The translations under genes and the position numbers were made by a program. Shown here in pieces: positions 35,682-63,797 of a stretch of 64,000 bases of DNA (position 1 is its first letter; each line of letters opens with the position of its first letter). Source of the DNA: Nannocystis pusilla (GTDB lineage: Bacteria; Myxococcota_A; Polyangia; Nannocystales; Nannocystaceae); the NCBI RefSeq assembly GCF_020073745.1, contig NZ_JAIRAU010000002.1:145694-209693 (forward strand), written 5' to 3'. Under the pieces are notes generated by a model, which saw only the letters and a list, made by a program, of their open reading frames with translations, did no database searches and had not been told where the DNA came from.

Positions 35682-35682
35682 C

Positions 35683-37190: not shown

Positions 37191-37199
37191 GCCCCCGCC

Positions 37200-38570: not shown

Positions 38571-38610
38571 CCTCCATGGCTCCCATCTTCAACCGCAAGG
38601 ACAGCAGCCC

Positions 38611-42529: not shown

Positions 42530-42607
42530 CCGGCAGGTTGCGGATCTCGTGCCAGCGGAGAAAACCCCGCAACAATAGGAGAATCGATCCCGGCGGGGGG
42601 TCGCGGG

Positions 42608-47865: not shown

Positions 47866-48783
47866 ATGCACAGTCGCAACGTCGAGATCAAGAGCCCCTG
47901 CCACGAGTCGTGGGACGCCATGCACGGCGATGATGCGCGCCGCTTCTGCGATGTCTGCGCCAAGCACGTGCACAACCTCTCGGCGATGACCCGACAGGCC
48001 GCCACCGATCTCCTCGAGGCGAACAAGGGCCAGCACCTGTGCGTGCGCTACTCGAACCAGGAAGACGGCCAGATCGCGTTCCGCGACACGCCCGTGGTCC
48101 CCGTGTCGCGCCTCCGCACCGCGCGGACGGCCTTCGCGGCGATGATGCTGGCGGCCTGCACCCCGCACGGCGATGGCCCGCCGATCCAGGACCTCGGCGA
48201 CATCGCCATCGAGACCATGGCCCGCGACGCCAAGCCCTCGCCCGAGGGCGGCTGCGAGGTCCAGACCGGGCCGTTCACGACGATGCACTTCCCGCGCGGC
48301 CACGAGGTGTGCCGCAACGTGGCCGACCTCGGCGAGCAGATCAAACCGCCGACGCCCCCGATCGTCGAGCCGCCGCCGCCGCCGCCGACGCTCATGGGCG
48401 CCCCGGAGCCGGTCCGGCCGCCGCCGCCGCCGGTGACGGAGGAACTGATGGGCAAGGTGGCGCCGCCGGTCGAGCACGTGAAGATGGGCGAGGCGATGCC
48501 CGAGGTGAAGGAGCCCTGCGATCCGCAGCCGGGCTTCGCCCCGCCGCCGCCCTCGCTGCTGATGGGCCAGACGGCGGCGCCGGTCGTCGCTCCGCCGCCC
48601 CCGTCGGCGCTGATGGGTGGAGCCGTCCCGATCGAGGCGGAGCCGCCGTCGCCGCCGCCCGCGCTGATGGGTGACATCGCCGTCGCCCCGGAGCCGCCGC
48701 CGCCGCCCGTCGAGCCGCCCAGGGTCAAGATGGGGAAGATCGCCAGCCCGAAGACCGGCGGCGCGGTGATCGACGAGTTCTGA
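47866..48783 (+). CDS. proline-rich protein with N-terminal Cys/His zinc-finger-like region and periodic xLMGx motifs
   Basis: N-terminal CHESWDAMHGDDARRFCDVCAKHVH, then PPPP tracts punctuated by TLMG/ELMG/LLMG/ALMG/VKMG about every 20-25 aa. 305 aa. Confidence 0.55.
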   Translation: MHSRNVEIKSPCHESWDAMHGDDARRFCDVCAKHVHNLSAMTRQAATDLLEANKGQHLCVRYSNQEDGQIAFRDTPVVPVSRLRTARTAFAAMMLAACTPHGDGPPIQDLGDIAIETMARDAKPSPEGGCEVQTGPFTTMHFPRGHEVCRNVADLGEQIKPPTPPIVEPPPPPPTLMGAPEPVRPPPPPVTEELMGKVAPPVEHVKMGEAMPEVKEPCDPQPGFAPPPPSLLMGQTAAPVVAPPPPSALMGGAVPIEAEPPSPPPALMGDIAVAPEPPPPPVEPPRVKMGKIASPKTGGAVIDEF

Positions 48784-48808
48784 GCCGCGCGGCTCCTGAC
48801 TGAAAGGG

Positions 48809-48892
48809 CATGGCCGTGACGCCATGTCCTTTTTCACATGTGGCAGACGATATGTCCTCAGTGACATGTCCTCGACGACATGTCCTGAACCG
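48809..48892. repeat. 6-unit 14-bp CATGTCC array at convergent junction (Pro-rich protein / giant protein)
   Basis: CATGGC 48809, CATGTC 48823, CATGTG 48837, TATGTC 48851, CATGTC 48865, CATGTC 48879. Perfect 14-bp period. Confidence 0.85.
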
Positions 48893-48915
48893 CGGGCCGC
48901 AGCAGCCGCCCGCGG

Positions 48916-51900
48916 TCAGTCCTCGCCGGCGGCGGGTGCCTCGTCGGGGCGGGCCTCGGCCGCCGGCGTGAAGTCCTCGCGGTTGCTGTCCCACCAGGCC
49001 TGCCAGGCGCGCAGGGCGAGGTCGCGGCTGCGCCGGTCGCCCTCGGCGGGGAACGGGATCCGCTGGCCGGTGATCCGCGCCAGCTCGTCGGCGGCCCAGC
49101 GGCGGACGGCCTCGTCGCGGTGGCGCAGGCCGTCGATGACCCACTCGATACGCGGCTCGTGGCCGTGCTCGGCGTACCAGGCGCGCCAGCGGGCGGCGCG
49201 GTAGCCGTGGTGCTTGGCGGTGATCGAGCACAGGGCCTCGAGCGCGGCCTCGCGGACGTGCTTGTCGCGCACGGCAAGGAGGTCGATGAGCCGCGGCACG
49301 GCGAGGGTGTCGCGCAGCGTGCCGGCGGCCTCGACCGCGAGCAGCTGGCGGTCGCGGTCACGGCTGTCGAGGTCCTCGCGGATCTCGGCGGCGACCGCGA
49401 CGAAGTCGGGCACGCGGCTGTACGACTCGAGCACGCGGGTGGCGATCAGGCGCACGTCGGGGTCGGTGTCGAACGCGAGCTCGCCGAGCGGGCGCAGGCA
49501 CCGGGGGTCGCGCAGCTCCTGGAACAGGAACGCGGCGTAGAAGCGGATCTGCGGCCGCACGCTGGCGAACAGCGCCAGGATGTGCGGGCTGACCGCGTGC
49601 CCGAGCTCGACGCAGGCGCGCAGCAGCGGGCCGTGGGCGCTCGGCGGCGGGAAGTTGGTCGCGTTCGCCAGGTCGATCGGCCCGGGGAAGCGCGCGGCCA
49701 GGCGGGCCAGGCCGCGCTGGTCGAGCGCCCGCAGCCGCGACACGCTGGTCCATTCGGCCGGGTCCTGCAGGAAGCCCTCGATGATCGCGTCGATCTCGTC
49801 GTCGCTGAGGGCCGCGCCGGCGCCGGTCGCCTCGGGCTCCTCGGCGGCCAGCTCCTCGGCGGGGGCGGGGGCCGGAGTCTGGCTGTCCTCGGCGACCTGC
49901 TCTTCGGGACCGGTCGCCGGGGGCATGTCCTCGACGACATGTTTGATGGCGCCGCGAGATGTCGAGGCGCTGGCCGGCTCGTCGGGCCCGTGTCGCATGA
50001 CGCCGCGGGAGGTCGAGGCGCCGGCCGAATCGTCGGGGCCGCGCCGCGTGGCCCCGCGGGAGATCGAGGCGCTGGCCGAATCGTCGGGCTCGTGCCGGAT
50101 GGCGCCGCGGGAGGTCGAGGCGCTGGCCGAATCGTCGGGGGCGTGCCGGATGGCGCCGCGGGAGGTCGAGGCGCTGGCCGGCTCGTCGAGCGCGTCGCCT
50201 GTCCCCGACTCGCGGACCAGCCGCGGCATGCTGAGCGCGCTCGAGGAGGCCTCGGAGCGCGGCTCCTGCTTGCCGCGGCGCCGCCCGCTGCGCGGGCCGA
50301 TCAGCGTGGTCGGTATCGACAGCGTGGCCGTGCTGTCCTCGCTGTCGCTCGGATCGCTGCGGCGCGCCATCGGGTGCGGGGTGGCCGTGAGCCCGCCCTG
50401 GCGCCGCAGGGTCTTCGGGATCACGAGCACCGGCTCCTCCTCGACCGGCGCGGGCGTGCGACGGCGGCGGCCGGCGCCCGGGGTCCCGGGCGGGGCGATC
50501 AGGTTGGGGATCAACGTCGACGGCGGGACCGCGGGATCGAGCGGCGGGATGTCGAGGACCGTCTCGGCATCCGGCGCCGCGCGCGTCTCCACCACCGGCG
50601 GCTCGTGGGCCGGCGGCGGCGAGAGGTCGAGGACCGTCGGCGTGTCGGAGGCGGCGCGCGGCCAGGCGTCGAACTCGGGGTCGGGCCCGGCCGCCCGCGC
50701 CCGCGCGGCCTCGTCGAGGACGACCCGCGGCGCGCCCGGCAAGGTCGCGGCGGGATCGAGGTCGGGGCCCCGCTCGGCCCCGGCGGCCGCGGCCCGCAGC
50801 GCGTCCGCCATCGGCAGCGGATCCTCGATGCCCGAGGCCTCGGAGGAGGCGATCCAGCCGGGCATGTCGGGTCCGCTCTCGGCTGGCGTGGAGGACATGT
50901 CGCTTCGCGCATGTCCAAAAGTATTGGGCCGATCGGACAGGTCGATGGTGACCGACGGCAGCGGCTTGGAGTAGAGGGCGGCGAAGCGGGCGACCAGGGG
51001 GCTGTCCCCGCCCTCGGGGCCGAGCGGCACCGGCACCGGCGCGAGCCCGAGGCCGGGCCCGTCGCGGCGGTCCTCCTCTTCTTCGCGCTCGAGCTCGGCG
51101 GCGTCGAGCCCGCCGGACTCGTCGGCGTCGGCGTCGATGTCGGCCTCGGTGGGCGCTTCTTCGGGCACCAGCGTCGGCGCGCGCGTGGCCGCGGAGCTCT
51201 CGGGGCGGACCGGCAGCGGCGTCACGGTCGACAGCTCGTCGCGCCGGATCGGGTTCTTCAGCGTGATGATCGCGCGCCCGCGGTTGTTGCCGCGGCCGCG
51301 CGAGCGGCTGGTCGAGGCGCTGTCGCCGAAGCCGGGCTCGACGGTGCCGCCGGCCGGGGGCAGGGACGCCTCGTGCTCTTCGGCCGCGGGGGTGGGCTCG
51401 GCCGGGGCCGACGCGGCGACCTGCGGCGCGCTGTCCTCGGCGTCGTTCGTGCTCGCGGCGTCGCTCTCGTCGACCGTGACCACCGGCGTCGCGAGGTGCG
51501 GCCGCGCGGCCGGGCGCGAGCGATCGGCCGGACCCGCCCCGGGCGTGCCGCCGGGCACGACCCATCCGAGCAGTCGGAGCAGGGCCTCGAGGCTCTGCCT
51601 CGCGGTGTCGCACAGCTCGCGCACGACGGTCCGCTCGCGCGGATCGAAGGCGACGCCGGCCCGGTCGAGGTAGAGCATCAGGACGGTGCGGCCCCCGGCG
51701 AGGACCGGCTCGAAGACGCAGGGGATCCCGAGCGGCTGACCCACCGCGGACGACAGGCTCGGCTCGGCCAGCAGGTGCAGCGGACCCTGGCCGGTGACGG
51801 CGCGATCGAGCAGGCCGCCCTCGGGCAAGGCGAGCACGACGCCCTCGGCCAGCTGCAGGGCGCTGCCGGGCGCGGCCAGGACGCGCAGGCCCTCGCGCTT

Positions 51901-54114
51901 GACCCCGAACAGGGCGACGCGGGGGGCGATCAGCGACGCCGCGCGCACCAGCGCCTCGGTGATCCGGTCGCGCTCGCGCGCGGTCGCCAGCGCGGCCCGG
52001 GCGGCGTCGAGCCGCTGCGCCAGGGTCATGACCATCGCCTGCGGCGGCGGCGGCGGCTTGCGGGACGACGACTCGACCATCCCATGGCTGGTCGAAGAGG
52101 CAGGTGAATCCTGGTCCGGCTCGGCCGGGCTCGAGCTGGCCGTCGGGACAGGCGTGATCGGGGCGGAGACGGCGGCGGCCGTCGGGTGGGCGACGCCGTT
52201 GCTCGGGCCGTGCGCGGCCGGGGTGGGCGCGTGGCTGTCCGATGAGACAGGTGACGGCCGTTCGGAAGCGGGGGCCGCGGCCGGGCGCTCGAGCGCCGGG
52301 CTCTGGCTGGGCCGCTCACGGGCGGCGGCCGGCCACGCCGCGGTCTCCCTGCTCGAAGAGACAGGCGTGACCGCGAACTTGGCGGGGCCGGTGCGCTCCG
52401 GGGCGGCGCCCTCGGCCGGCAAGATGATGAGCGGGGTGTCCGGGGCGATCGCCAGCCCCGACAGCGAGGCGCCGCCGAAGCCCTCGAAGCCGCGCGGGGC
52501 GACGAGCGGCGCGTCGGGAGCCACCGGGACCGCCTCCATCCCGACGGGCGGGCGGTTGGCGACGGCGGCGGCGATCGGCATCGGCGCGGTCCCGGTGGCC
52601 CGGCTGGGGGCGAGCTCGGGGGCGGGGGCGTCGGTGACCGACGGCGCCGGGCGCGGAGCTGCTTCTTCGGCCCTGTCTGCCGGGACAGATTCGGATCGCG
52701 CGGGCGCTTCGGGTCCGCGTGAGGCAGGAGCTGGCGGTCCGGCCGGCTCGGCGCCGGAGGGCCCGGCCGTCGAGGTCGCGGGCGCTGTTGCTTCGAGGCT
52801 ATCCTCTGGGGCAGGAGGGGCCGGGGCCGCCGCGCTGGCACTCGCCGGCTCGACGGCGAGCGGGGAGGGGGCGTCCGCGCGGTCCGCCTCGGCCTGCGCC
52901 GTGCTGGTGTCCGGCGCCGGTGAAGCTGCGGCGAGGTCGTGGGCGTCCGACCCGACGGTCGTGGGCGGGGCGACGGCCGCGGTGCTGTCCGAAGAGGCAG
53001 GTTCGGACGCGGCTGTGGTGCTGTCCGAAGGGACAGGCTCGGGCGCGGCGCTGATGCTGTCCGAAGGGACAGGTTCTGGCGCAGCCGCGATACTGTCCGA
53101 TGAGACGGGTTCGGGCGCGGCTGCGGTGTTGTCCGAGGGGACAGGTTCGGGCGCGGCCGCGGTGCTGCTCGAAGAGGCAGGTTCGGGTGCGGCTTCGGTG
53201 CTGTCTGAAGAGGCAGGTTCGGGTGCGGCCTCGGCGCTGCTGTCCGAACGGTCAGGCGCGGCGGGCCGGGGCTCGACGCCGTCGTCCGAACGGTCGGGCG
53301 CGCCGCTCGGGACGACAGCCGTGGCCTGGGCCTCGGCGCTGCTGCCCGAAGGGACAGGTGAATCCGCAACGCTTTCGGGAACCGGAGCGGCCAGGTCGGC
53401 AGAGACCGGCGTCGCGCCGCTGCTGTCCGCGGCTCCGGCCCTGTCCGAAGCGACAGGCGTGGCCGCCGGCGAGCTCGCGCTGCTGTCCGAAGAGACAGGC
53501 GGCGCCGAGCTGGCGCGCGCGGCCACGGCCGGGCCCGACATCGCGGCCGGGCGCGGGCCGGCGTTCTGCCTGTCCCCCGGGACAGGTACGTCCTGGAGCG
53601 GCGCGTCCGAGGCCGGCAGGTGGACCGTGGGGGTCGTGCTGCGCAGCGCCTCGAGGTAGTCGAGCAGGATCAGCGCGTAGCGCGGGGCCAGGATGGCGCC
53701 GGTGCGCTCGACGGCGACCTTGGCCAGGCAGCACTCGGGCGCGACCACCGGGTAGAAGCCGCGGATCAGGCGGTACAGCTGGCCGAGCTTGGCGTCGGGC
53801 AGGTCGGGGTGGACGGCGACGATCAGGCGCCCGTCCTCGGCCGCGAGGGGCATGGCCCAGCCGATGTCGACCAGGTCCTTCGGGACATGTTCCCAGGGCC
53901 GGGTCGGTCCGCGCTCGAGCAGCCGCACCGGCGCGCCCGGGAGGCCGCAGGCGCTCTGCAGCAGGGCGTCGAGCGCGAGCGGGGTCATCAGGCCGAGCTC
54001 GAGGATCGCGGTGTCGAGGCTGCCGCCGGCCTGCTGTTGCCGCCGGGTCGCGGCCTCGAGATCGGCGCGCGACAGCGGACCGTTGGCTTCGAGGTGGCGC
54101 AGGAGGAGGCTCAC
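48916..54114 (-). CDS. giant multidomain protein: N-terminal GspE-N/MshEN-like domain, long acidic Ser/Pro/Ala low-complexity tandem repeats, C-terminal HEAT repeats
   Basis: GTG start at 54114 overlaps the RDD gene stop (GTGA). N-terminus LLRHLEANGPLSRADLEAATRRQQQAGGSLDTAILELGLMTPLALDALL matches the T2SSE_N/MshEN fold. C-terminal ~300 aa are HEAT/PBS-lyase-like (DPDVRLIATRVL, DKHVREAALEAL, DEAVRRWAADEL). The upstream 394 aa of ORF 48916..55296 are Arg-rich read-through. Confidence 0.6.
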   Translation of the reverse strand: MSLLLRHLEANGPLSRADLEAATRRQQQAGGSLDTAILELGLMTPLALDALLQSACGLPGAPVRLLERGPTRPWEHVPKDLVDIGWAMPLAAEDGRLIVAVHPDLPDAKLGQLYRLIRGFYPVVAPECCLAKVAVERTGAILAPRYALILLDYLEALRSTTPTVHLPASDAPLQDVPVPGDRQNAGPRPAAMSGPAVAARASSAPPVSSDSSASSPAATPVASDRAGAADSSGATPVSADLAAPVPESVADSPVPSGSSAEAQATAVVPSGAPDRSDDGVEPRPAAPDRSDSSAEAAPEPASSDSTEAAPEPASSSSTAAAPEPVPSDNTAAAPEPVSSDSIAAAPEPVPSDSISAAPEPVPSDSTTAASEPASSDSTAAVAPPTTVGSDAHDLAAASPAPDTSTAQAEADRADAPSPLAVEPASASAAAPAPPAPEDSLEATAPATSTAGPSGAEPAGPPAPASRGPEAPARSESVPADRAEEAAPRPAPSVTDAPAPELAPSRATGTAPMPIAAAVANRPPVGMEAVPVAPDAPLVAPRGFEGFGGASLSGLAIAPDTPLIILPAEGAAPERTGPAKFAVTPVSSSRETAAWPAAARERPSQSPALERPAAAPASERPSPVSSDSHAPTPAAHGPSNGVAHPTAAAVSAPITPVPTASSSPAEPDQDSPASSTSHGMVESSSRKPPPPPQAMVMTLAQRLDAARAALATARERDRITEALVRAASLIAPRVALFGVKREGLRVLAAPGSALQLAEGVVLALPEGGLLDRAVTGQGPLHLLAEPSLSSAVGQPLGIPCVFEPVLAGGRTVLMLYLDRAGVAFDPRERTVVRELCDTARQSLEALLRLLGWVVPGGTPGAGPADRSRPAARPHLATPVVTVDESDAASTNDAEDSAPQVAASAPAEPTPAAEEHEASLPPAGGTVEPGFGDSASTSRSRGRGNNRGRAIITLKNPIRRDELSTVTPLPVRPESSAATRAPTLVPEEAPTEADIDADADESGGLDAAELEREEEEDRRDGPGLGLAPVPVPLGPEGGDSPLVARFAALYSKPLPSVTIDLSDRPNTFGHARSDMSSTPAESGPDMPGWIASSEASGIEDPLPMADALRAAAAGAERGPDLDPAATLPGAPRVVLDEAARARAAGPDPEFDAWPRAASDTPTVLDLSPPPAHEPPVVETRAAPDAETVLDIPPLDPAVPPSTLIPNLIAPPGTPGAGRRRRTPAPVEEEPVLVIPKTLRRQGGLTATPHPMARRSDPSDSEDSTATLSIPTTLIGPRSGRRRGKQEPRSEASSSALSMPRLVRESGTGDALDEPASASTSRGAIRHAPDDSASASTSRGAIRHEPDDSASASISRGATRRGPDDSAGASTSRGVMRHGPDEPASASTSRGAIKHVVEDMPPATGPEEQVAEDSQTPAPAPAEELAAEEPEATGAGAALSDDEIDAIIEGFLQDPAEWTSVSRLRALDQRGLARLAARFPGPIDLANATNFPPPSAHGPLLRACVELGHAVSPHILALFASVRPQIRFYAAFLFQELRDPRCLRPLGELAFDTDPDVRLIATRVLESYSRVPDFVAVAAEIREDLDSRDRDRQLLAVEAAGTLRDTLAVPRLIDLLAVRDKHVREAALEALCSITAKHHGYRAARWRAWYAEHGHEPRIEWVIDGLRHRDEAVRRWAADELARITGQRIPFPAEGDRRSRDLALRAWQAWWDSNREDFTPAAEARPDEAPAAGED
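49950..50215. repeat. intragenic ~60-bp tandem repeat (5 units) in giant protein gene
   Basis: Units GCGCCGCGGGAGGTCGAGGCGCTGGCCGAATCGTCGGG(G/C)... encode repeated ASTSRGAIRH(A/E)PDDSAS on the minus strand. Confidence 0.75.
52960..53260. repeat. intragenic ~36-42-bp tandem repeat (~7 units) containing CTGTCCGAAGGGACAG inverted motif
   Basis: Units GTGCTGTCCGAAGGGACAGGTTCGGGCGCGGC... encode APEPVPSDS(I/T)(S/A)A repeats on the minus strand. Confidence 0.75.
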
Positions 54115-54710
54115 TGTTCCCTCACGACGTAGGTGCCCGTCAGGTAGTCGTGGAAGGCCCGCTTCTCGCGGTCGAAGGCCATCCACAGCGAGCCGAGGCC
54201 GCCGGGCACCAGGCCGACGGCCGTGCCCGCGAACCGCACCGTCGCGCGCACCGGACCGACCTTGCCGCCGGCGCGGTGGACCACGCGGATCCCGGTGAGC
54301 TTCTGCCCGGGTGTCCTTCCGGACAGGGCGATGAACAGCACGAAGTACAGCGCGACCATCACCAGCAGCGGTGCGAACCACACGAGGATCTCGAGCGGGT
54401 CGACGGTGAGCAGCTGCAGCAGGCCCGCCCACGAGAACCCGCCGCGCACCGGGCTCGGCTGACCGAGCACGCGCTGCAGGCCGAGGTGCAGCGGGCCCGC
54501 CGTCACCAGCAGGAGCGCCGCGTCGACCAGCGCGGCCGCGAGGCGGCGCCAGAAGCCGGCGACGCGCACCGGCACCAGCGCTTGCCCGCACGCGGGGCAC
54601 GTCGGGCTCCCGTCCTTGACGAGACCGATGTCCAGCGCCGCGTCGCAGCTCGGACACGGGGCGGGTCGCTCCTTGCGGGTCCAAAACGCCATCGGCGCGC
54701 ACCATATCAC
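54111..54710 (-). CDS. RDD-family membrane protein with N-terminal zinc ribbon
   Basis: CPSCDA...CPACGQ zinc ribbon, 3 TM helices, RDD-type FDREKRAFHDYLTGT motif. Confidence 0.65.
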   Translation of the reverse strand: MIWCAPMAFWTRKERPAPCPSCDAALDIGLVKDGSPTCPACGQALVPVRVAGFWRRLAAALVDAALLLVTAGPLHLGLQRVLGQPSPVRGGFSWAGLLQLLTVDPLEILVWFAPLLVMVALYFVLFIALSGRTPGQKLTGIRVVHRAGGKVGPVRATVRFAGTAVGLVPGGLGSLWMAFDREKRAFHDYLTGTYVVREQ

Positions 54711-54746
54711 GGCCCCGGGCCTCCCGGCCGGTCCCGGCGCGGCCGC

Positions 54747-55436
54747 TCAGGCGAACATGACGCGAGCGACAGCGACCAGCGCCGCGGTCTCGGTGCGCAG
54801 CGTGTAGGGCCCGAGGCTGAGCGCGCGGAAGCCCGCGGCGAGCAGAGCGCTGGCCTCGTCGGGGGTGAAGCCGCCCTCGGGGCCGACGCACACGCGCGCA
54901 CCGGCGCTGACGATCAGTGCGTCGCTCGATGTCGCGCGCAACTCCTCCCACGCGAACAAACCCGGGAGGTCGGCGCGCCGGGTCGTCGCCTCGCGGAGAT
55001 CCACGGGGCCCGAGATCGCGGGCCGGCGCGGTCGCCCGCACTGTCGCTGCGCCGCCCGCAGCACCCGCGCGATCCGGTCGGCGCCGGGCGCCGCGCCCTG
55101 GCTGCGGGCGCAGCGGACCAGCACGACCTCGGCGACCCCGAGCTCGCACAGCCCCGGCAACAGGTCGAGCACCGCGGCCGGCTCCGGCATCCCGAGCAGG
55201 ACCACGACCTCGCGGGCCGGCTGCGGCGCCGCCCGCTCGGTCACGAGGCGCACCACCGTGCCGCGCGCGTCGCCGCCGACGACCTCGGCGGTCCACAGGC
55301 CGCCGCGATCGTCGATCGCGTCGATCCTCGCGCCGTCGGCCACCCGCCGCACGCGGCGGAGGTAGTGCGACTCGCCGGCGTCGAGCAGCACGTGCGCCGG
55401 ATCGGCCGGCGCGCCGACGAACACCCGCGTGCTCAT
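54747..55436 (-). CDS. rsmE: 16S rRNA (uracil1498-N3)-methyltransferase RsmE
   Basis: 229 aa, RsmE family pattern (MSTRVFVG..., PUA-like N-terminus, C-terminal SPOUT knot VCVGPEGGFTPDE). Confidence 0.7.
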   Translation of the reverse strand: MSTRVFVGAPADPAHVLLDAGESHYLRRVRRVADGARIDAIDDRGGLWTAEVVGGDARGTVVRLVTERAAPQPAREVVVLLGMPEPAAVLDLLPGLCELGVAEVVLVRCARSQGAAPGADRIARVLRAAQRQCGRPRRPAISGPVDLREATTRRADLPGLFAWEELRATSSDALIVSAGARVCVGPEGGFTPDEASALLAAGFRALSLGPYTLRTETAALVAVARVMFA

Positions 55437-56407
55437 CGGGCGGCCCGCAGCACCAGCGCGCACCACTCGGCGAGGTCGCGGCGATCGACCTGCTCGAGCC
55501 CCGCCGCCGCGTAGGCCGCGAGCACCGCCTCGGCCTCCTCGCCGAGCACGCCGCTCAGGACCACCGTCCCGCCGGGCGCGAGGCGACGGGCGACCTCGCC
55601 GGCGATCGGGATCAGCACGCCCGGGCGGATGTTGGCGAGGATCAGATCGAAGCTGTCCGAAAGTTCCAGTACGGTCGCGGCCCGGATCTCGAGCCGGTCT
55701 TCGAGCGCGTTGGCGGCGGCGTTCTCGGCGGCGGTGTCGGCGGCGTCGGGGTCGTTGTCGGCGGCGACCACGGCGGCCCGCGGGAACAGCCGCGCCGCCG
55801 CGAGGGCCAGGATCCCCGAGCCGCAGCCGAGGTCGAGCACGCGGTCGGGGCGGGCGCCGGCCTCGGCCAGGGCGACCAGCACCTCGAGGCAGAGCCGCGT
55901 CGTCTCGTGCTGCCCGGTCCCGAACGCGCGGCCCGGATCGAGGACCAGCTCGAGCTCGGGGTCGCCGTCCTTGCGATCGATCCAGCTCGGCCGCACCAGC
56001 AGCGTCGTGCTCGCGGCCGCGAACACGATCGGCGCGTAGAACTGCTTCCACGTGTCGCGCCAGTCGTCGTCGGTGCGGACCGCCGGGGTCAGCCGCAGCG
56101 CCAGGCGCAGCTCGGCGGCGAGGCGCTCGACCTCGGCGACGAGGCCCTCGAGGCCGTCGGGGGTGGTGTAAATCGTCAACTCGGGGATCTCGCACCGACT
56201 GCCGAGGGTCGACGCGTCACGCGTCTCGACGCCCGCGGCGCGCGGGTCCTCGGCGATGAGCGTCGCCAGCGCCTCGAGCCGCTCCGACGCCTCCGCCAGC
56301 TCCGTGGGGTCGATGCCATCGCTCGCGCCGTCGTCCTCGGACCGGCCGCGGAGCTGGACCAAAAGCGTCGCCCACGGTTCGGCGCTCGTCTCTGCTGTCT
56401 CTCGCAT
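55433..56407 (-). CDS. prmA: ribosomal protein L11 methyltransferase PrmA
   Basis: GTGQHETTRLCLE and SAM motif DLGCGSGILA. ATGA overlap with rsmE. Confidence 0.75.
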   Translation of the reverse strand: MRETAETSAEPWATLLVQLRGRSEDDGASDGIDPTELAEASERLEALATLIAEDPRAAGVETRDASTLGSRCEIPELTIYTTPDGLEGLVAEVERLAAELRLALRLTPAVRTDDDWRDTWKQFYAPIVFAAASTTLLVRPSWIDRKDGDPELELVLDPGRAFGTGQHETTRLCLEVLVALAEAGARPDRVLDLGCGSGILALAAARLFPRAAVVAADNDPDAADTAAENAAANALEDRLEIRAATVLELSDSFDLILANIRPGVLIPIAGEVARRLAPGGTVVLSGVLGEEAEAVLAAYAAAGLEQVDRRDLAEWCALVLRAAR

Positions 56408-56496
56408 GGCGCGGCAGTGTAGGCGAGTTCGTCGCAGACTCGACGGATCAAATTGCATGCTCAATTACAAAAACGGCATAGGCTGCTCCGGACACG

Positions 56497-56524
56497 CGGC
56501 CCGCGGGCCCGTGCGCACTTTTTA
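56497..56524 (+). terminator. GC-rich palindromes (GGCCCGCGGGCC, GTGCGCAC) followed by TTTTT; intrinsic-terminator-like or sRNA 3' end
   Basis: Stem-loops followed by T-run on the + strand in an intergenic region with no upstream + strand CDS. Confidence 0.3.
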
Positions 56525-56651
56525 ACTTTATTCGCCCCGGAGCCTCTGCCATACCTCGGGGCCAGATCTGGGCGGCGCCTCCGGCGACGGCGACCCATGA
56601 GGGGTTGGCTGTGACGCATCATCCCCCGGGCGCTGCAAGAGGGAGAGGCAC

Positions 56652-56879
56652 ATGGTGGCATTTACGGGAGTCAAAGTGTTCTCGGCGACCAAGGCTTGGG
56701 AGCGCGAGCAGATCAGCGATCGCATCAACGAGTGGCTCGAGGCCAACCCCGGCGTGGAGATCGTCGACAAGGTGGTCACCCAGAGCTCCGACAGCGAGTT
56801 TCACTGCCTGACCATCACCCTGTTCTACAGCCGCCCGACCAGCCGTGGTGCCGCCGCTCAAGCGTCTGCGGCGCCCTGA
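56652..56879 (+). CDS. small hypothetical protein (75 aa)
   Basis: Good RBS (GGGAGAGG) 4 nt before ATG. Located in an AT-richer intergenic region. No recognisable family. Confidence 0.4.
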   Translation: MVAFTGVKVFSATKAWEREQISDRINEWLEANPGVEIVDKVVTQSSDSEFHCLTITLFYSRPTSRGAAAQASAAP

Positions 56880-57097
56880 CGCGCCAGCCGCCGCGTGCGA
56901 GCAGCCTGATAGAGCCTTTCGCCTTGCGAGAGCCGGCGCCGTCCGCGTCGGCTGTCGAGCTTTCTGACCGCGGGCACGCCTCGCCGACGTCGTCGCTCTC
57001 GCGTCCGTGTCTCGGCAGTACGGGACAGGTCCCAAGAGACAGTTTCGACGCGCGCCGCTTGTCGCGCCGACCGGCCTGCGGGTATGGTGCGGCGGCG

Positions 57098-58090
57098 ATG
57101 GCACGGGGGCGGCTCAGCGTCGAGGCGTACGCGGCGGGGGTGAGGGCAGGCGAGCGGGCGGTGCTGGCGCGGGCGATCACGTTGGTCGAGAGCCAGCGCG
57201 CCGACGATCAGGCGCTCGCGCGCGAGCTGGTGGCCGAGCTGCAGGCCGACGCCGGCGGCTCGCTGCGCGTCGGCGTGACCGGCAGTCCCGGGGCCGGCAA
57301 GAGCACCCTGATCGAGGCGCTCGGTCTTCACCTCGTGCGGGACCTCGGCCGCCGCGTCGCCGTCCTGGCCGTCGATCCCAGCTCCGTGCGCAGCGGCGGC
57401 AGCATCCTCGGCGACAAGACGCGCATGCAGGAGCTGGCCCGCGAGCCTCGCGCCTTCATCCGGCCTTCGCCCTCGCTCGGCGAGCTCGGCGGCGTCGCGC
57501 GTCACACCCGCGAGACCGTGCTCTTGTGTGAAGCGTCCGGCTTCGACGTCGTCCTCGTCGAGACAGTCGGCGTCGGCCAGTCCGAGGTCATGGTCGCCCA
57601 GCTCGTCGACTGCTTCCTCGTCCTCATGCTCGCCGGCGCCGGCGACGAGCTGCAGGGCATCAAGCGCGGGATCCTCGAGCTCGCCGACATCCTCGCCATC
57701 ACCAAGGCCGACGGCGACAACACCGCCGCCGCCGAGCGAGCCCGCGCCGAGTACGCCCTGGCGATGCGCCTCATCCGCCCCAAGCACCCCGGCTGGTCCG
57801 TGCCCGTCGTCACCACCTCCTCCGTCACCGGCGCCGGCCTCGCCGCACTGTGGCAGACCGTCGAGCGTCACCGCCTGGCCCTTCAGTCAGGTCCCGCCTG
57901 GCAGGCCCAGCGCGAGGCGCAGCACGTCTACTGGCTCTGGCGCGCCATCGAGGCCGAACTGATGCGCCGCTTCGCCGCCGACCCCGCCGTGCTCGCCCGC
58001 CGCCCCGAGCTCGAAGCCGCCGTCCGCAGCGGCCGCCTCAGCCCCGACCACGCCGCCGCCGAACTGCTCGCCGCCTTCACCGGCCGCTGA
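57098..58090 (+). CDS. meaB: methylmalonyl-CoA mutase-associated GTPase MeaB/ArgK family
   Basis: Walker A GSPGAGKST, switch motifs, NKAD-like ITKAD. 330 aa. Confidence 0.8.
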   Translation: MARGRLSVEAYAAGVRAGERAVLARAITLVESQRADDQALARELVAELQADAGGSLRVGVTGSPGAGKSTLIEALGLHLVRDLGRRVAVLAVDPSSVRSGGSILGDKTRMQELAREPRAFIRPSPSLGELGGVARHTRETVLLCEASGFDVVLVETVGVGQSEVMVAQLVDCFLVLMLAGAGDELQGIKRGILELADILAITKADGDNTAAAERARAEYALAMRLIRPKHPGWSVPVVTTSSVTGAGLAALWQTVERHRLALQSGPAWQAQREAQHVYWLWRAIEAELMRRFAADPAVLARRPELEAAVRSGRLSPDHAAAELLAAFTGR

Positions 58091-58478: not shown

Positions 58479-58535
58479 CATGCCCGAACAAGCATGTCTG
58501 AAAGACAATGCTCCTCAAGACATGTCCTTCTCGCC
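58479..58535. repeat. 4-unit 14-bp CATGTC array
   Basis: CATGCC 58479, CATGTC 58493, CAATGC 58507, CATGTC 58521. Confidence 0.75.
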
Positions 58536-58550: not shown

Positions 58551-59960
58551 CTAGGAGCCCTGGCCGGTGAGGTCGATGCGCCGCCACGCCCCGTTGCGGA
58601 AGCGCAGCACCAGCACCAGCGCGAGGAACACCATGTACACGACCATGCTCCACGTCGCCGCGACCGCGCCGCCCTGCCACACGAACACGCTGAGCCACGC
58701 CAGCGGCAGCCAGATCGCCCACGAGACGGTGATGCGGGCCGCGAGCGGCCACGCCGTGTCGCCGGCCGCGCGCAGCGCCTCGTTGATCGTCATCACGGCG
58801 GCGTCGAGGAGCTGCCACACCGCGCTGATCGCCAGCAGCTGGGCGCCGAGGACCACCACGGCGCTCGAGCCCGCGACCTCGTCGCGGGCGAAGATCATCA
58901 TCAACGGCACCGGGACGGCGAAGTAGAGCAGGCCGACCAGTCCTTGCCAGCAGGCGGCGACCGAGAAGGTCTGGCGCACGAGTCGGGGCACCTGGTCGTG
59001 GTGGCCGCCGCCGATCGCCTGGCCGACCAGCACGGCGCCGGCCGAGGCGAGGCCGAACGCCGGCATGAACGACACCGAGTTGACCGCGCTCACCGCCATG
59101 AGCGCCGCGACGGCGACCGTCCCGAGCTCGGCGAGCACGACGTTGATGAAGATCAGGAAGGCCGCGAACTCGAGGAACCAGTTGAGGCCGTTCGGCAGGC
59201 CGAAGCGCATCATCCGCGAGAACTCGCGCGCGTTGAGGCGGCCGTCCGAGCTGGCTGGAAGGACAGGTAAGGCGTGTTCGACGGGGCCGAGCATCGCGGG
59301 GTCGACGGCGGACTGCTTGCGCGCGCGCCAGAACGCGTGGCAGGCGACGGCGAAGCCGGCGACGCTGGCGAGCACGCTGGCCCACGCGGCGCCCTGGACC
59401 CCGAGGGCCGGCGCGCCGAGGTTGCCGTAGATCAGGACCCAGTTGAGGACGATGTTGACGACCATCGCCGTCAAGCTGGCGCGCATCGCCACCTGCGTGT
59501 CGCCGAGGCCGGCGAACCAGTTGCCGAGCGCCTCGGCGCCGACGACCACGCCGGCGCTGACCATGCGGATCGCCATGTAGTCGGCCATCACCTCGCGCAC
59601 CGCCGGCGTGTGGCCGGTCAGCGCGAGGAGCGGGTCGATCGCCGGGATCGCAGCGACGCCTGCGAGCATCGCCAGGGCGGCGAGCCACAGGCCGTACCAG
59701 GCGTAGCGGCGCGCGCTGGCGAGGTCGCCCTGGCCGGCCAGCTGGGCCGCGTAGCTCTGGACGATGAACGTGATGCCCATCGGCAGCACGAGGAGCGCGA
59801 ACGAGTTCAGGGCCCCGGTGGTCGCGGCCGCGAGCGCGTCGTCGCCGAGCGGGGCGACCATCGCGGCGTCGCTGAAGCTGATCACCGACTGCGCCGAGCG
59901 TGCGAGCACGATCGGCCAGGCCAGGGTGATGAGCGCGCGGAGTCCCGGGGCCGTGGACAT
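58551..59960 (-). CDS. MATE family efflux transporter
   Basis: 12 TM, duplicated MATE domains. 469 aa. Confidence 0.75.
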   Translation of the reverse strand: MSTAPGLRALITLAWPIVLARSAQSVISFSDAAMVAPLGDDALAAATTGALNSFALLVLPMGITFIVQSYAAQLAGQGDLASARRYAWYGLWLAALAMLAGVAAIPAIDPLLALTGHTPAVREVMADYMAIRMVSAGVVVGAEALGNWFAGLGDTQVAMRASLTAMVVNIVLNWVLIYGNLGAPALGVQGAAWASVLASVAGFAVACHAFWRARKQSAVDPAMLGPVEHALPVLPASSDGRLNAREFSRMMRFGLPNGLNWFLEFAAFLIFINVVLAELGTVAVAALMAVSAVNSVSFMPAFGLASAGAVLVGQAIGGGHHDQVPRLVRQTFSVAACWQGLVGLLYFAVPVPLMMIFARDEVAGSSAVVVLGAQLLAISAVWQLLDAAVMTINEALRAAGDTAWPLAARITVSWAIWLPLAWLSVFVWQGGAVAATWSMVVYMVFLALVLVLRFRNGAWRRIDLTGQGS

Positions 59961-62672: not shown

Positions 62673-63797
62673 TCAGCCGGGGTCGAGGCCGACGCCGCGG
62701 ACGATCTCGGCCATCGCCGGACGCGCCCGGGCCAGGTCGGCGCGCGTCTTGATCGGCAAGAAGCGGCGGCGATCGACCCGCAGGCAGGCGGTGCGCGCGA
62801 ACTCGGTGAGCTGGCCGATCAACTGCTCGAATTGCACGACGGACATGTCCTCCCGGCCAGGCCACTCGATCGTGCGCTCGACCGGGAACCACGTCAGCGG
62901 GTGCGTGCGCTCGAGCGCCGCCAGCGAGATCCACAGGGTGTTGGTGTTGAAGTGCGGGTACTGATCGAGGGCTGTCCCCGGGGGCAGGCGGAACGACTCG
63001 ACGATGATCGGGCGGCCGTCGACCTCGGCCACGCAGCCGCCGGCGTCGTCGGGGGCGCGCGGGACGACCTCGACGCTGAGCTCGGCGCCGGCCTCGACGG
63101 CCTCGAGGTGCGCGCCCAAGATCGTCGGGTCGAGCGAGGCGCCGAGGTTGTCGACGTTGGAGACGAGGACGTGCTCGACCCCGCGGGCGCGCAGCTCGGC
63201 GACGACGCCGCTGTCACGCACGCGGCGGAGGGTGTCGCCGTGGCCGGGCGCGGCGTAGACGGTGGTGTCGGGCAGGACGTCGGCGCCGGGCAGGCTCAGC
63301 AGCGGGGTGCCGTCGGGCAGGACGCGCGGGAGCAGCGACTGCAGGAACTCGAGCCGGTCGCCCGCCGGCACGCCCGACCAACCGATGGTCGCCAGGTGAT
63401 CGCCGGAGGCGGCGGCCGTGGCGAAGCTGTGCATGACGACCGCGGGGACGCCGGCGGCGCGGACCCCGGCTAGCTTGACGGCCAGGAACGAAAGGTCAGG
63501 TCGATCGGGCAGCACCGGCACCACGCCCTTGACCACGCCGCCGAAGCGGGTGGCCATGCCGCCGTTGAGGATCAGGGCCGCGACCTTGCGCGCGCCGAGG
63601 GCCGCCTCGCCGCGCTCGCGCCAGCGCGGGCGCGCGTCGACCCGGTCGAGGTCGAGCAGGTCGCCCTCGCCGAGCGGCCGCGGCGGCGCCGGCAAGCGCG
63701 AACGCGTGGGGCTCAGCTCGCCGCGAGCCAGGGCGCCACGGAGGGCGTCGAACAGGGCGGCGTCGAAGGCGATGTCGGCGACCGAGGGGCGGACCAT
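62673..63797 (-). CDS. UDP-sugar pyrophosphorylase (UDPGP family, UTP--glucose-1-phosphate uridylyltransferase-like)
   Basis: LILNGGMATRFGG matches the UDPGP LNGGxGTRxG motif. 374 aa. Confidence 0.6.
   Translation of the reverse strand: MVRPSVADIAFDAALFDALRGALARGELSPTRSRLPAPPRPLGEGDLLDLDRVDARPRWRERGEAALGARKVAALILNGGMATRFGGVVKGVVPVLPDRPDLSFLAVKLAGVRAAGVPAVVMHSFATAAASGDHLATIGWSGVPAGDRLEFLQSLLPRVLPDGTPLLSLPGADVLPDTTVYAAPGHGDTLRRVRDSGVVAELRARGVEHVLVSNVDNLGASLDPTILGAHLEAVEAGAELSVEVVPRAPDDAGGCVAEVDGRPIIVESFRLPPGTALDQYPHFNTNTLWISLAALERTHPLTWFPVERTIEWPGREDMSVVQFEQLIGQLTEFARTACLRVDRRRFLPIKTRADLARARPAMAEIVRGVGLDPG

What the first reader, a model, noticed from the sequence alone, without database searches (positions are those of the whole stretch)
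48916..56407. Operon-like unit prmA-rsmE-RDD-giant protein; the giant protein combines an MshEN (c-di-GMP-binding-type) N-domain, ~1000 aa of acidic tandem repeats and C-terminal HEAT repeats
Four minus-strand genes are tightly packed with ATGA/GTGA overlaps: L11 methyltransferase, 16S rRNA m3U methyltransferase, an RDD membrane protein with a zinc ribbon, and a ~1730-aa protein. The last begins with a T2SS-E N-terminal/MshEN-like fold (LLRHLEANG...LGLMTPLALDALL), contains a middle globular region (MVMTLAQRLDAARAALATARERDRITEALVRAASLIAPRVALFGV...) and ends in HEAT repeats. The start codon of the ORF-track call (55296) is almost certainly wrong; a GTG at 54114 overlaps the RDD stop. MshEN domains bind c-di-GMP in MshE, so this could be a signalling scaffold linked to the adjacent secretion machinery.
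Basis: partly seen in the sequence, partly recalled or inferred. Interest (0 to 1): 0.55.

Follow-up and report, generated by a model that had tools for sequence, protein, structure and literature searches.

The report
Giant FrgA ortholog with RDD partner
The 1,732-residue protein is the Nannocystis version of FrgA, a little-studied Myxococcus motility and aggregation protein, enlarged by two long floppy acidic linkers; its "c-di-GMP-type" N-domain has the right fold but lacks the residues that bind c-di-GMP.

Summary
Four minus-strand genes, prmA, rsmE, a zinc-ribbon RDD membrane protein and a 1,732-aa protein, lie at 48916-56407. The giant gene starts at GTG 54114, not 55296. The window is from Nannocystis pusilla.

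The giant protein is the positional and sequence ortholog of Myxococcus xanthus FrgA (MXAN_1130). It has the same three collinear domains: an MshEN-fold N-domain, a central GAF fold and a C-terminal HEAT-like domain. It also has the same upstream neighbours, zinc-ribbon-RDD and rsmE.

Only about 175 aa are true tandem repeats. The rest of the roughly 1,125 aa between domains is acidic, low-complexity linker that is longest in this genus.

The c-di-GMP reading is not supported. The guanine-contacting Gly/Arg/Gln positions are replaced (L3-L4-L5, S32-L33-D34, A55), and the same pattern holds across 153 family members. Published work lists FrgA as a predicted non-binder. The T2SS cluster is adjacent only within the genus.

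The conserved unit is the RDD-FrgA pair, with a 4-bp stop/start overlap in 30 of 37 loci.

Most likely this is a cytoplasmic scaffold co-made with, and possibly tethered to, its RDD membrane partner, acting in motility or aggregation control. It is a new member of a known, poorly understood family. Interest is modest.

The parts
55433..56407 (-). prmA, ribosomal protein L11 methyltransferase (324 aa from ATG 56407; alternative ATG at 56458)
   Evidence: PF06325 at 2.2e-54. TIGR00406 scores 159 bits, below its equivalog cutoff of 183. Its stop overlaps the rsmE start as ATGA.
54747..55436 (-). rsmE, 16S rRNA m3U1498 methyltransferase family (229 aa)
   Evidence: PF04452 at 9e-30 plus PUA_4; TIGR00046 scores 106 bits against a cutoff of 41.
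54111..54710 (-). Zinc-ribbon RDD membrane protein (199 aa from GTG 54710; the conserved ATG at 54692 is the more likely start, giving 193 aa)
   Evidence: PF06271 at 4.4e-24. The CPSC...CPAC ribbon is conserved in 35 or more Nannocystales loci and also in Myxococcus, Stigmatella and Corallococcus partners. Hydrophobic windows lie at residues 50-72 and 94-128. The stop overlaps the giant gene's GTG.
48916..54114 (-). Giant frgA ortholog, 1,732 aa plus stop codon
   Evidence: GC3 frame switch at 54114. 100% identical to an N. pusilla protein. Collinear three-domain match to M. xanthus FrgA and shared synteny.
53638..54114 (-). N-domain, residues 1-159: MshEN/GSPII fold with a degenerate c-di-GMP motif
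   Evidence: AF2 model pLDDT 95.5. The top 20 Foldseek PDB hits are all MshEN/GSPII domains. Family profiles against the PDB give 2.6e-36 for the whole family and 5.9e-8 for Nannocystales only. Motif table.
52027..53637 (-). Linker 1, residues 160-696: acidic A/P/S-rich low-complexity segment, inferred disordered
   Evidence: pI 4.2, 12% hydrophobic residues, 64 D+E against 25 K+R. Not alignable between genera; length ranges 137-714 aa across the family.
52968..53239 (-). Tandem array 1: 36-nt (12-aa, 'AAPEPxxSDSxx') unit x 7.5 copies inside linker 1
   Evidence: TRF score 316, 80% matches. Copy number is 7, 2 and 1 in the three closest relatives and 0 elsewhere.
51565..52026 (-). Central GAF-fold domain, residues 697-850
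   Evidence: AF2 model pLDDT 90.4. Every listed Foldseek PDB hit is a GAF domain or a GAF-containing protein, including 5w10 and 3oov. GAF_2 gives 8e-4 on the isolated domain and 1.3e-10 for the best family member. The domain is present in all distant homologs.
49798..51564 (-). Linker 2, residues 851-1439: acidic low-complexity segment, inferred disordered
   Evidence: pI 4.5, 16% hydrophobic residues, 95 D+E against 52 K+R. Length ranges 227-774 aa across the family.
49946..50195 (-). Tandem array 2: 51-nt (17-aa, 'DDSASASTSRGAIRHxP') unit x 4.9 copies inside linker 2
   Evidence: TRF score 353, 86% matches. Found only in the closest relatives.
48979..49797 (-). C-terminal domain, residues 1440-1712: HEAT-like repeats plus a family-specific Trp-rich tail. 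This is the most conserved part of the family.
   Evidence: PF13646 at 1.7e-11 and PF02985 at 9.6e-6. Profile against PDB alphaRep proteins gives 8e-66. 32% identity and 3e-22 to M. xanthus FrgA. Invariant residues include W208, W223 and R220.

Best explanation
The giant gene encodes the Nannocystis ortholog of FrgA, the Myxococcus xanthus 'frz-related' protein MXAN_1130.

Anatomy (shown). It is a soluble cytoplasmic protein with three folded modules joined by two very long, acidic, low-complexity linkers that are probably disordered.
- An N-terminal MshEN/GSPII-fold domain.
- A central GAF-fold domain.
- A C-terminal HEAT-like repeat domain with a Trp-rich tail.

Context (shown). It is made from the same transcription unit as a zinc-ribbon RDD inner-membrane protein, and most likely by translational coupling to it through the GTGA stop/start overlap. 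This two-gene module lies downstream of rsmE, and usually of prmA-rsmE, across Myxococcota.

Mechanism (inferred).
- The MshEN-fold domain no longer senses c-di-GMP. It probably acts as a protein-docking module, as the N-domains of XpsE/GspE and Xanthomonas PilB do.
- The RDD protein, through its cytoplasmic zinc ribbon, is the most likely membrane anchor or partner.
- The GAF domain supplies either a small-ligand input or a dimerisation surface.
- The HEAT platform binds downstream partners.
- As in M. xanthus, the output is probably control of surface motility, reversals or aggregation.
- The linkers act as long flexible tethers. Their tandem repeats are recent, species-specific expansions.
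For: Orthology to FrgA:
- BLASTP against M. xanthus FrgA (P0107) gives collinear hits in all three domains: HEAT 3e-22 at 32% identity, N-domain 0.002 and GAF region 0.015.
- An HMM of the middle domain finds it in every distant homolog, at 1e-5 to 1e-13 in all but P0024, which scores 0.014.
- P0031, which is 68% identical to M. xanthus FrgA over about half its length and is itself named FrgA, was found with the giant protein as query.

Synteny:
- M. xanthus, Stigmatella, Corallococcus and a MAG show rsmE ... zinc-ribbon-RDD - frgA.
- 33 Nannocystales loci and two distant MAGs show prmA-rsmE-RDD-frgA.
- The 4-bp RDD/FrgA overlap occurs in 30 of 37 loci.

Domains:
- MshEN fold.
- GAF fold.
- HEAT.

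No c-di-GMP binding expected:
- Family-wide motif table: G40->D in 150 of 153 sequences, R38 never Arg, Q61 never Gln, G11 never Gly.
- Published mutant data and the 'predicted non-binding' listing for FrgA (PMC5013675).
- The non-binding PilF GSPII-A domain (PMC12002112).

Cytoplasmic location:
- No hydrophobic window anywhere, and the N-terminus is the MshEN domain itself.

Function in M. xanthus:
[quoted passage not shown] 2000).
- Listed among proteins identified in MglA proximity-labelling experiments; the authors did not include it among their candidate MglA interaction partners (PMC10630675).
- Transposon insertions in frgA behave like frz mutants (bioRxiv 10.64898/2026.08.28.747804).

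Linkers:
- Composition and length variation of 137-774 aa with no alignable sequence.
Against: - No experiment was done on any Nannocystis protein, so function is transferred from an ortholog that is about 30% identical in its best domain.
- The frgB/frgC two-component genes that follow frgA in Myxococcia are not adjacent in Nannocystales, so the regulatory wiring may differ.
- A physical RDD-FrgA contact is inferred only from conserved adjacency and overlap.
- Sorangium (L054) and one metagenomic homolog (L058) lack an upstream RDD gene.
- Invariant Asp/Thr at the former Gly-Asp position shows selection on that site. A different ligand, or weak c-di-GMP binding in another mode, cannot be excluded; PMC5013675 notes that imperfect motifs can still bind.
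- Disorder of the linkers was not computed with a predictor.
Confidence: 0.7

Rival explanations
1. One reading: the N-domain is a working c-di-GMP receptor, and the protein is a c-di-GMP-controlled scaffold serving the neighbouring type II secretion machinery.
For: - The domain has the MshEN fold, and the 24+5+24 motif spacing is kept without gaps.
- Several hydrophobic motif residues are kept: L4, L19, L33, L48, L52 and Q26.
- NF053729 'c-di-GMP_motif' gives a weak hit at E 0.0077.
- A T2SS cluster lies at about 26-42.5 kb.
- Degenerate motifs sometimes still bind (PMC5013675).
Against: - Both guanine-contacting Gly positions carry side chains (L5, D34), both stacking Arg are gone (L3, S32) and Q61 is Ala.
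- G11L abolishes detectable binding and G40I gives a 72-fold loss in VcMshEN.
- FrgA is listed as a predicted non-binder.
- PilF GSPII-A, with fewer changes, does not bind.
- T2SS adjacency is limited to one genus, and the cluster lies on the opposite strand 6.4 kb away with four genes in between.
Confidence: 0.08
2. Retooled sensor: the altered MshEN pocket (invariant GG-x-L-D-T) and/or the GAF domain binds a different small molecule, for example another cyclic nucleotide. FrgA would then be primarily a ligand-gated switch rather than a passive tether.
For: - Asp34, Thr35, Gly30 and Gly31 are invariant or nearly so across 153 sequences, which indicates selection rather than decay.
- The GAF model is most similar to cyclic-nucleotide- and chromophore-binding GAF domains such as 5w10 with cAMP and the PDE GAFs.
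- A class III cyclase gene lies near rsmE in M. xanthus (L055 3521-4822).
Against: - No ligand-specific motif was identified.
- The GAF structural matches have only 12-18% identity and cover many ligand classes.
- Conserved residues at the N-terminus of a helix may simply cap it, as described for PilF GSPII-A.
- The cyclase neighbour was seen in one genome only.
Confidence: 0.18
3. Artefact: the long ORF is a chance open frame in 75% G+C DNA, or a false fusion of several genes caused by sequencing errors in repeats.
For: - Long spurious ORFs are common here, for example a 995-aa antisense ORF at 49120-52107.
- GC3 drops to 0.75-0.78 in part of linker 1.
- In N. exedens DSM 71, synteny breaks inside linker 1.
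Against: - GC3 is 0.88-0.99 over most of the gene.
- A single uninterrupted ORF with the same domain order occurs in 8 Nannocystis proteins of 1,673-1,840 aa and in all more distant relatives.
- All three domains fold with pLDDT of 90 or more, or match curated models.
Confidence: 0.02
4. Exported acidic repeat protein: the acidic Pro/Ser/Ala-rich repeats mark a secreted or cell-surface protein such as an adhesin or a T2SS substrate.
For: - Acidic P/S/A-rich repeats resemble cell-surface linkers.
- A T2SS cluster is nearby.
- From memory of Cho et al. 2000 (not held): the M. xanthus frgA mutant could be rescued extracellularly.
Against: - There is no signal peptide and no hydrophobic segment; the protein starts directly with an MshEN-fold domain.
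- MshEN, GAF and HEAT-like domains are cytoplasmic module types.
- FrgA was biotin-labelled in proximity-labelling experiments with cytoplasmic MglA.
Confidence: 0.03

Closest known systems
FrgA of Myxococcus xanthus (MXAN_1130; P0107, 941 aa)
   Same: - Same order of three domains: degenerate MshEN fold, GAF-like middle domain and C-terminal HEAT-like domain with a Trp-rich tail.
- Same altered motif, GG-x-(L/V)-D-(T/S).
- Same upstream partner (zinc ribbon, P/A linker, RDD), with rsmE further upstream.
   Different: - Almost twice as long. Linkers are 537 and 590 aa here, against roughly 270 and 70-100 aa in M. xanthus (estimated from the sequence).
- It carries species-specific tandem arrays.
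- Motif I also loses Arg9, which is L3 here but is kept in most Myxococcia FrgA.
- No frgB/frgC histidine kinase and NtrC-type regulator downstream.
- In Nannocystales the RDD stop overlaps the frgA start; M. xanthus has a 52-nt gap.
MshEN / GSPII c-di-GMP receptor domains (V. cholerae MshE 5HTL; T. thermophilus PilF GSPII-B/C)
   Same: A four-helix bundle plus an alpha/beta subdomain, two 24-residue half-sites separated by 5 residues, and a conserved hydrophobic core.
   Different: The Arg, Gly and Gln residues that contact c-di-GMP are replaced in both half-sites. The domain is not attached to a secretion or pilus ATPase.
Non-binding or protein-binding MshEN-fold domains: PilF GSPII-A (9G1W), Xanthomonas PilB N-domain bound to PilZ (7LKO), XpsE N-domain (2D27/2D28)
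   Same: - They are among the best sequence and structure matches.
[quoted passage not shown]
- 7LKO shows the fold used as a protein-docking surface.
   Different: Those domains belong to hexameric ATPases. Here the domain heads a non-enzymatic scaffold, and its partner is unknown.
RDD family (PF06271) membrane proteins
   Same: Full-length match to the RDD profile (residues 50-191), with two or three hydrophobic segments.
   Different: It carries an N-terminal cytoplasmic zinc ribbon. It is genetically coupled to frgA across a phylum. The RDD family itself has no established function.

Membership tests
FrgA family (M. xanthus MXAN_1130 orthologs) | Significant sequence similarity to M. xanthus FrgA, collinear over all conserved domains | tested here: met
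   BLASTP: HEAT region 3e-22 at 32% identity, N-domain 0.002 and GAF region 0.015, in the same order. The middle-domain HMM hits all distant homologs.
FrgA family (M. xanthus MXAN_1130 orthologs) | Conserved genomic position: zinc-ribbon RDD gene immediately upstream, rsmE further upstream | tested here: met
   Window; M. xanthus L055, Stigmatella L059, Corallococcus L060 and MAG L053; 33 Nannocystales loci.
FrgA family (M. xanthus MXAN_1130 orthologs) | frgB (histidine kinase) and frgC (NtrC-type regulator) directly downstream, as in the M. xanthus operon | tested here: not met
   No FrgB homolog appears downstream in the window or in genus-Nannocystis loci. FrgC-like hits are generic sigma-54 activators 5 kb or more away on the other strand. 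This is a feature of Myxococcia loci, not of the protein.
FrgA family (M. xanthus MXAN_1130 orthologs) | Role in swarming and developmental aggregation | not testable with these tools
   Known only for M. xanthus.
MshEN (PF05157) c-di-GMP receptor domain | MshEN fold: N-terminal four-helix bundle plus C-terminal alpha/beta subdomain | tested here: met
   AF2 pLDDT 95.5 with helices at 3-11, 16-29, 33-39 and 45-56. The top 20 Foldseek PDB hits are all MshEN/GSPII. Profile hits to PilF, PilB and MshE.
MshEN (PF05157) c-di-GMP receptor domain | Single-sequence score above the curated family cutoffs (Pfam PF05157, NCBIfam NF053729) | tested here: not met
   No PF05157 hit at E<=1. NF053729 scores 16 bits against a cutoff of 38. 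10 of 17 family members do match PF05157.
MshEN (PF05157) c-di-GMP receptor domain | Two RLGxx(L/V/I)(L/V/I)xxG(L/V/I)(L/V/I)xxxxLxxxLxxQ motifs with intact Arg, Gly and Gln | tested here: not met
   Spacing is kept, but R9->L, G11->L, L29->T, R38->S, G40->D and Q61->A. The same pattern holds across 153 family members.
MshEN (PF05157) c-di-GMP receptor domain | Binds c-di-GMP | not testable with these tools
   Predicted negative from the mutant data (G11L, G40I, Q61A) and from the published listing of FrgA as a predicted non-binder.
GAF domain | GAF fold (antiparallel sheet flanked by helices) | tested here: met
   AF2 pLDDT 90.4. 96 PDB matches at E<=0.001; every listed hit is a GAF domain or a GAF-containing protein.
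GAF domain | Score above the Pfam gathering threshold | tested here: inconclusive
   GAF_2 scores 20 bits against a cutoff of 28.6 on the isolated domain. 6 of 16 family members match, the best at 1.3e-10.
HEAT-like repeats (PF13646 / PBS-lyase type) | Repeat matches above the curated cutoff | tested here: met
   PF13646 scores 44.7 bits against 27.7 in 3 stretches; PF02985 scores 25.8 against 23.5. alphaRep proteins hit at 8e-66 with the family profile.
RDD family (PF06271) | Full-length RDD profile match and membrane segments | tested here: met
   85.8 bits against a cutoff of 24.1, covering profile positions 1-136 of 137. Hydrophobic windows.
Operon (single transcription unit prmA-rsmE-RDD-frgA) | Co-directional genes with overlaps or short spacers and no internal terminator | tested here: met
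   Overlaps of 4 bp at two junctions and a 36-52-nt spacer at the third. No terminator-like site in 48300-57200.
Operon (single transcription unit prmA-rsmE-RDD-frgA) | A single mRNA spanning the four genes | not testable with these tools
   Needs RT-PCR or RNA-seq.

The most novel reading that the evidence does not exclude
The zinc-ribbon-RDD protein and FrgA form a phylum-wide, membrane-anchored two-protein module of Myxococcota. In this module an MshEN domain was permanently converted from a c-di-GMP sensor into a docking or alternative-ligand site. The evidence for conversion is an invariant Asp-Thr replacing the guanine-contacting Gly-Asp. The module would feed into MglA/Frz-type polarity and reversal control, and in Nannocystis the more than 1,100 aa of acidic disordered tether would add reach or phase-separation behaviour. 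If true, this would give RDD proteins their first defined cellular role and give FrgA a mechanism.
Probability: 0.2. Interest if true: 0.55.

Novelty: new member of a known kind. Interest (0 to 1): 0.3.

Why it matters
FrgA was named in 2000, but its mechanism is unknown and, according to the MshEN paper, its non-MshEN parts were 'previously uncharacterized domains'. This analysis contributes the following:
- It places a hypothetical 1,732-aa Nannocystis protein in the FrgA family.
- It shows that the family has a GAF-fold centre and an alphaRep-type HEAT platform.
- It shows that the MshEN motif is systematically altered, not randomly decayed, in 153 members.
- It shows that the constant genetic partner is a zinc-ribbon RDD membrane protein, often translationally coupled. 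The partner is neither a secretion system nor the frgBC two-component genes.

These points give specialists in myxobacterial motility and development a concrete partner to test, and a caution against counting FrgA-type MshEN domains as c-di-GMP receptors. For the wider field this is an incremental annotation result.

Tried and rejected
- Single-sequence Pfam and NCBIfam scans did not give a curated-threshold MshEN or GAF hit. Family profiles and structure models were needed instead.
- The first attempt at search for related loci, with the 14-sequence C-domain alignment, failed for lack of a conserved stretch. A 5-sequence alignment worked but reached only Nannocystales. Myxococcia loci had to be reached through protein look-ups.
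- The primary FrgA paper (Cho et al. 2000, PMC111401) is not held. Statements about the phenotype come from papers that cite it, and anything recalled from memory is marked as such.
- Goldman et al. 2007 list 'FrgA' as MXAN_3225, 'polysaccharide export'. This conflicts with MXAN_1130 in two other sources. I judged it a likely mix-up with another gene and did not use it.
- The 1.84-billion-protein profile search with the C-domain was swamped by generic multi-HEAT proteins. It was used only to show that single-stretch FrgA-type hits range from 233 to 1,936 aa.
- Promoter and terminator scans of 48300-57200 found nothing. Rfam and tRNA scans of the window found nothing.
- A link between FrgA and the sigma-54 activators in the window was considered and dropped. 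Their similarity to FrgC (37-43%) is at the generic NtrC-family level, and they are not adjacent.
- No supplementary text was held for the 2026 Tn-seq preprint.

Full report
**1. What is in the sequence**

The window has 70-77% G+C. The giant protein is 100% identical to a 'hypothetical protein' of Nannocystis pusilla.

Between 48916 and 56407 there are four genes on the minus strand.
- prmA, 55433-56407: PF06325 at 2e-54.
- rsmE, 54747-55436: PF04452 plus PUA_4; TIGR00046 scores 106 bits against a cutoff of 41.
- An RDD protein, 54111-54710: PF06271 at 4e-24, with an N-terminal CPSC...CPAC zinc ribbon.
- A 1,732-codon gene, 48916-54114.

The junctions are as follows. The prmA stop and rsmE start overlap as ATGA, and the RDD stop and giant-gene start overlap as GTGA. 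Between rsmE and RDD there is a spacer of 36 nt. The spacer is 52 nt if the ATG at 54692 is the true start, which orthologs support.

The mechanical ORF start at 55296 is wrong. In the ORF frame, GC3 is 0.49-0.66 upstream of 54114 and 0.93 or more immediately downstream. A GAGGGA sequence lies 4 nt before the GTG. All orthologs begin at the equivalent MSLL....

No promoter-like or terminator-like site was found in 48300-57200.

**2. Anatomy of the giant protein**

The protein has pI 4.75 and a mass of 178 kDa. It has no window of 19 residues with mean hydropathy above 1.6, so it is predicted soluble and cytoplasmic.

Comparison with 33 homologs shows three conserved blocks separated by segments that do not align. 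The blocks are residues 1-160, about 697-850 and about 1440-1712.

The two linkers, about 537 and 590 aa, are A/P/S-rich and acidic.
- Linker 1 has pI 4.2 and 12% hydrophobic residues.
- Linker 2 has pI 4.5 and 16% hydrophobic residues.

True tandem repeats are limited to two arrays: a 12-aa unit x 7.5 copies and a 17-aa unit x 4.9 copies. Together they make about 175 aa, not 1,000. The arrays occur only in the closest relatives, with 7, 2 and 1 copies of the first.

Linker lengths across the family range from 137 to 714 aa and from 227 to 774 aa, and genus Nannocystis is at the top of the range. I infer that the linkers are disordered tethers. No disorder predictor was available.

**3. The three folded domains**

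*N-domain.*
- The single sequence misses the curated thresholds. There is no PF05157 hit, and NF053729 scores 16 bits against a cutoff of 38.
- A 17-sequence family profile hits PilF (2.6e-36), M. xanthus PilB (1e-20) and MshE 5HTL (3e-12).
- A profile built only from the Nannocystales-type sequences still hits PilF (5.9e-8), PilB and MshE, and its top eight hits are all MshEN-type domains.
- The AlphaFold model has pLDDT 95.5.
- Its top 20 PDB matches are all MshEN/GSPII domains. They include 5HTL, the Xanthomonas PilB-N:PilZ complex 7LKO, and 9G1W, the PilF GSPII-A domain.

*Middle domain.*
- The model has pLDDT 90.4.
- Every listed PDB match is a GAF domain or a GAF-containing protein.
- GAF_2 reaches 1.3e-10 in a family member and 8e-4 on the isolated domain of this protein.

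*C-domain.*
- PF13646 and PF02985 score above their cutoffs.
- The family profile hits alphaRep (consensus bacterial HEAT-like) proteins at 8e-66 over profile positions of about 70-203.
- The flanking parts, including an invariant Trp/Arg-rich tail, are specific to the family.

**4. Identity: an FrgA ortholog**

Distant homologs found with the giant protein carry PF05157 + (GAF_2) + PF13646, and one of them is named FrgA. Searching with that protein retrieves more than 100 proteins named FrgA from Myxococcus, Corallococcus, Stigmatella, Archangium and others. They include M. xanthus FrgA (P0107, 941 aa).

The giant protein matches P0107 collinearly in all three domains: HEAT 3e-22 at 32% identity, N-domain 0.002 and GAF region 0.015. 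An HMM of the middle domain detects it in every distant homolog.

Synteny agrees with this.
- In M. xanthus the order is rsmE - Transgly_assoc - RDD - frgA - histidine kinase - NtrC-type regulator.
- Stigmatella, Corallococcus and a MAG show the same order.
- The RDD partner in these genomes also has an N-terminal zinc ribbon once the ORF is read from its real start. Corallococcus has a 695-aa protein of ribbon, P/A linker and RDD.
- In 52 Nannocystales loci, 33 have prmA-rsmE-RDD-frgA in order, at identities down to 41-50%.
- Most of the remaining loci are cut by contig ends. The exceptions are L003 (synteny break, see section 7) and L009, which keeps RDD-frgA but shows no prmA or rsmE within the flank.
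- Two distant MAG homologs at about 30% identity have the same four genes.
- Sorangium and one metagenomic homolog lack the upstream RDD gene.
- The 4-bp RDD-stop/frgA-start overlap is present in 30 of 37 loci where both ends could be read.

**5. Does the N-domain bind c-di-GMP?**

Aligned without gaps to V. cholerae MshE, the 24+5+24 layout is preserved. The predicted helices correspond to MshE helices with an offset of 6 residues.

The key positions read as follows.

| MshE residue | This protein |
|---|---|
| R9 | L3 |
| L10 | L4 |
| G11 | L5 |
| L25 | L19 |
| L29 | T23 |
| Q32 | Q26 |
| R38 | S32 |
| L39 | L33 |
| G40 | D34 |
| L54 | L48 |
| L58 | L52 |
| Q61 | A55 |

In VcMshEN, G11L gives no detectable binding, G40I a 72-fold loss and Q61A a 12-fold loss (PMC5013675 Suppl. 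Table 1).

Across 153 family members, the G40 position is Asp in 150, R38 is never Arg, Q61 is never Gln and G11 is never Gly.

[quoted passage not shown] PilF GSPII-A shares 'GGSL' at motif II and deviates less than this protein. It shows no binding by ITC or NMR, even after the consensus residues are restored (PMC12002112).

I therefore predict no canonical c-di-GMP binding. The invariance of GG-x-L-D-T argues that the site is still under selection for something else. That could be helix capping, a partner protein or another ligand.

**6. Is it linked to the secretion system?**

T2SS-type genes (T2SSK, PilM-like) lie on the plus strand and end near 42.5 kb. A sigma-54 activator and three genes without family matches separate them from the giant gene.

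This neighbourhood is retained only in the five genus-Nannocystis loci that keep the upstream genes (L001, L002, L004-L006) and in L003. None of the other 28 loci that keep prmA-rsmE-RDD-frgA has these genes within 10 kb. The link is not supported.

**7. Mechanism proposed**

*Shown:*
- The domain folds.
- Orthology to FrgA.
- The phylum-wide RDD-frgA pairing, with frequent stop/start overlap.
- The degenerate nucleotide motif.

*From the literature:*
- M. xanthus FrgA is needed for normal swarming and fruiting.
- It was among the proteins identified in MglA proximity-labelling experiments.
- Transposon insertions in frgA behave like frz mutants.

*Inferred:*
- FrgA is a cytoplasmic scaffold made in fixed proportion with the RDD membrane protein and is probably tethered to it.
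- Its MshEN-fold domain acts as a docking module, as in XpsE/GspE and Xanthomonas PilB.
- The GAF domain gives a ligand or dimerisation input.
- The HEAT platform recruits effectors of motility or polarity.
- The Nannocystis linkers are lineage-specific expansions of flexible tethers.

*Caveats:*
- There are no experiments in Nannocystis.
- There are no frgBC genes next to the gene in this order.
- The RDD contact rests on gene context alone.
- In the N. exedens DSM 71 assembly, synteny breaks inside linker 1.

**8. Novelty and score**

This is a new, unusually large member of a known but mechanistically obscure family. Three family-level points appear useful: the GAF centre, the systematically altered MshEN motif, and the conserved, translationally coupled zinc-ribbon RDD partner. 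They are incremental.

Interest is 0.3. The most novel reading still open is a phylum-wide RDD-FrgA membrane module with a retooled MshEN site. I give it a probability of about 0.2.

Noticed in passing
window 48821-48886; also 21560-21603, 8660-8720, 6670-6709, 2399, 58517-58528, 62840-62851: The palindromic motif (A)GGACATGTC(C) is strongly over-represented: 41 matches with at most 1 mismatch against 2.4 expected. Four copies at about 14-nt spacing fill the 132-bp convergent spacer just downstream of the giant gene's stop. It could be a regulator binding site or a REP-like element.
   Followed up: partly
window ~26000-42530 (+ strand): A type II secretion / pilus-like gene cluster (T2SSK at 37200-38570, PilM-like at 38662-40374). 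Sigma-54 activators similar to NtrC/FrgC lie at about 26186-27505 and 42701-44110. It is adjacent to the frgA locus only within genus Nannocystis.
   Followed up: partly
L055 6158-7948 (M. xanthus CP017169): The RDD gene upstream of M. xanthus frgA is called as 290 aa. The open frame extends about 300 codons further upstream and then encodes a zinc ribbon (LSKCLKCG...GECAAC) and a P/A-rich repeat linker, as in Corallococcus (695 aa). The 131-aa gene called on the opposite strand inside this stretch is probably spurious.
   Followed up: partly
L003 1-7892 (Nannocystis exedens DSM 71, NZ_NETK01000001): Homology to the window begins only at L003 7893, which corresponds to window 52079, inside linker 1. 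The N-domain, RDD, rsmE and prmA are not upstream. This is either a rearrangement or an assembly break in the repeat-rich linker near the start of the unitig.
   Followed up: partly
giant protein residues 4-52 (window 53959-54105): Pfam DUF2949 (PF11165) matches the four-helix-bundle half of the N-domain in this protein (E 0.004 on the isolated domain) and in 6 of 17 family members (best 2.8e-6). One Nannocystis ortholog is annotated 'DUF2949 domain-containing'. DUF2949 may itself be an MshEN_N-type bundle.
   Followed up: no
window 49120-52107 (+), 51794-53659 (+), 53100-55514 (+): Very long antisense or off-frame ORFs (up to 995 aa) overlap the giant gene. The GC3-scoring segments within two of them show GC2 near 0.75, which is typical of non-coding frames in high-G+C DNA. 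These ORFs are artefacts.
   Followed up: yes
L055 3521-4822 (M. xanthus): A class III adenylate/guanylate cyclase gene (PF00211) lies divergently next to rsmE in the M. xanthus frgA neighbourhood. It is a possible lead for the ligand of the FrgA GAF domain, but it was seen in one genome only.
   Followed up: no
window 57098-58090 (+), 58551-59960 (-): The flanking genes are meaB (methylmalonyl-CoA mutase-associated GTPase, 4.7e-107), divergent from prmA, and a MatE efflux gene. The meaB neighbour is conserved only within genus Nannocystis.
   Followed up: no
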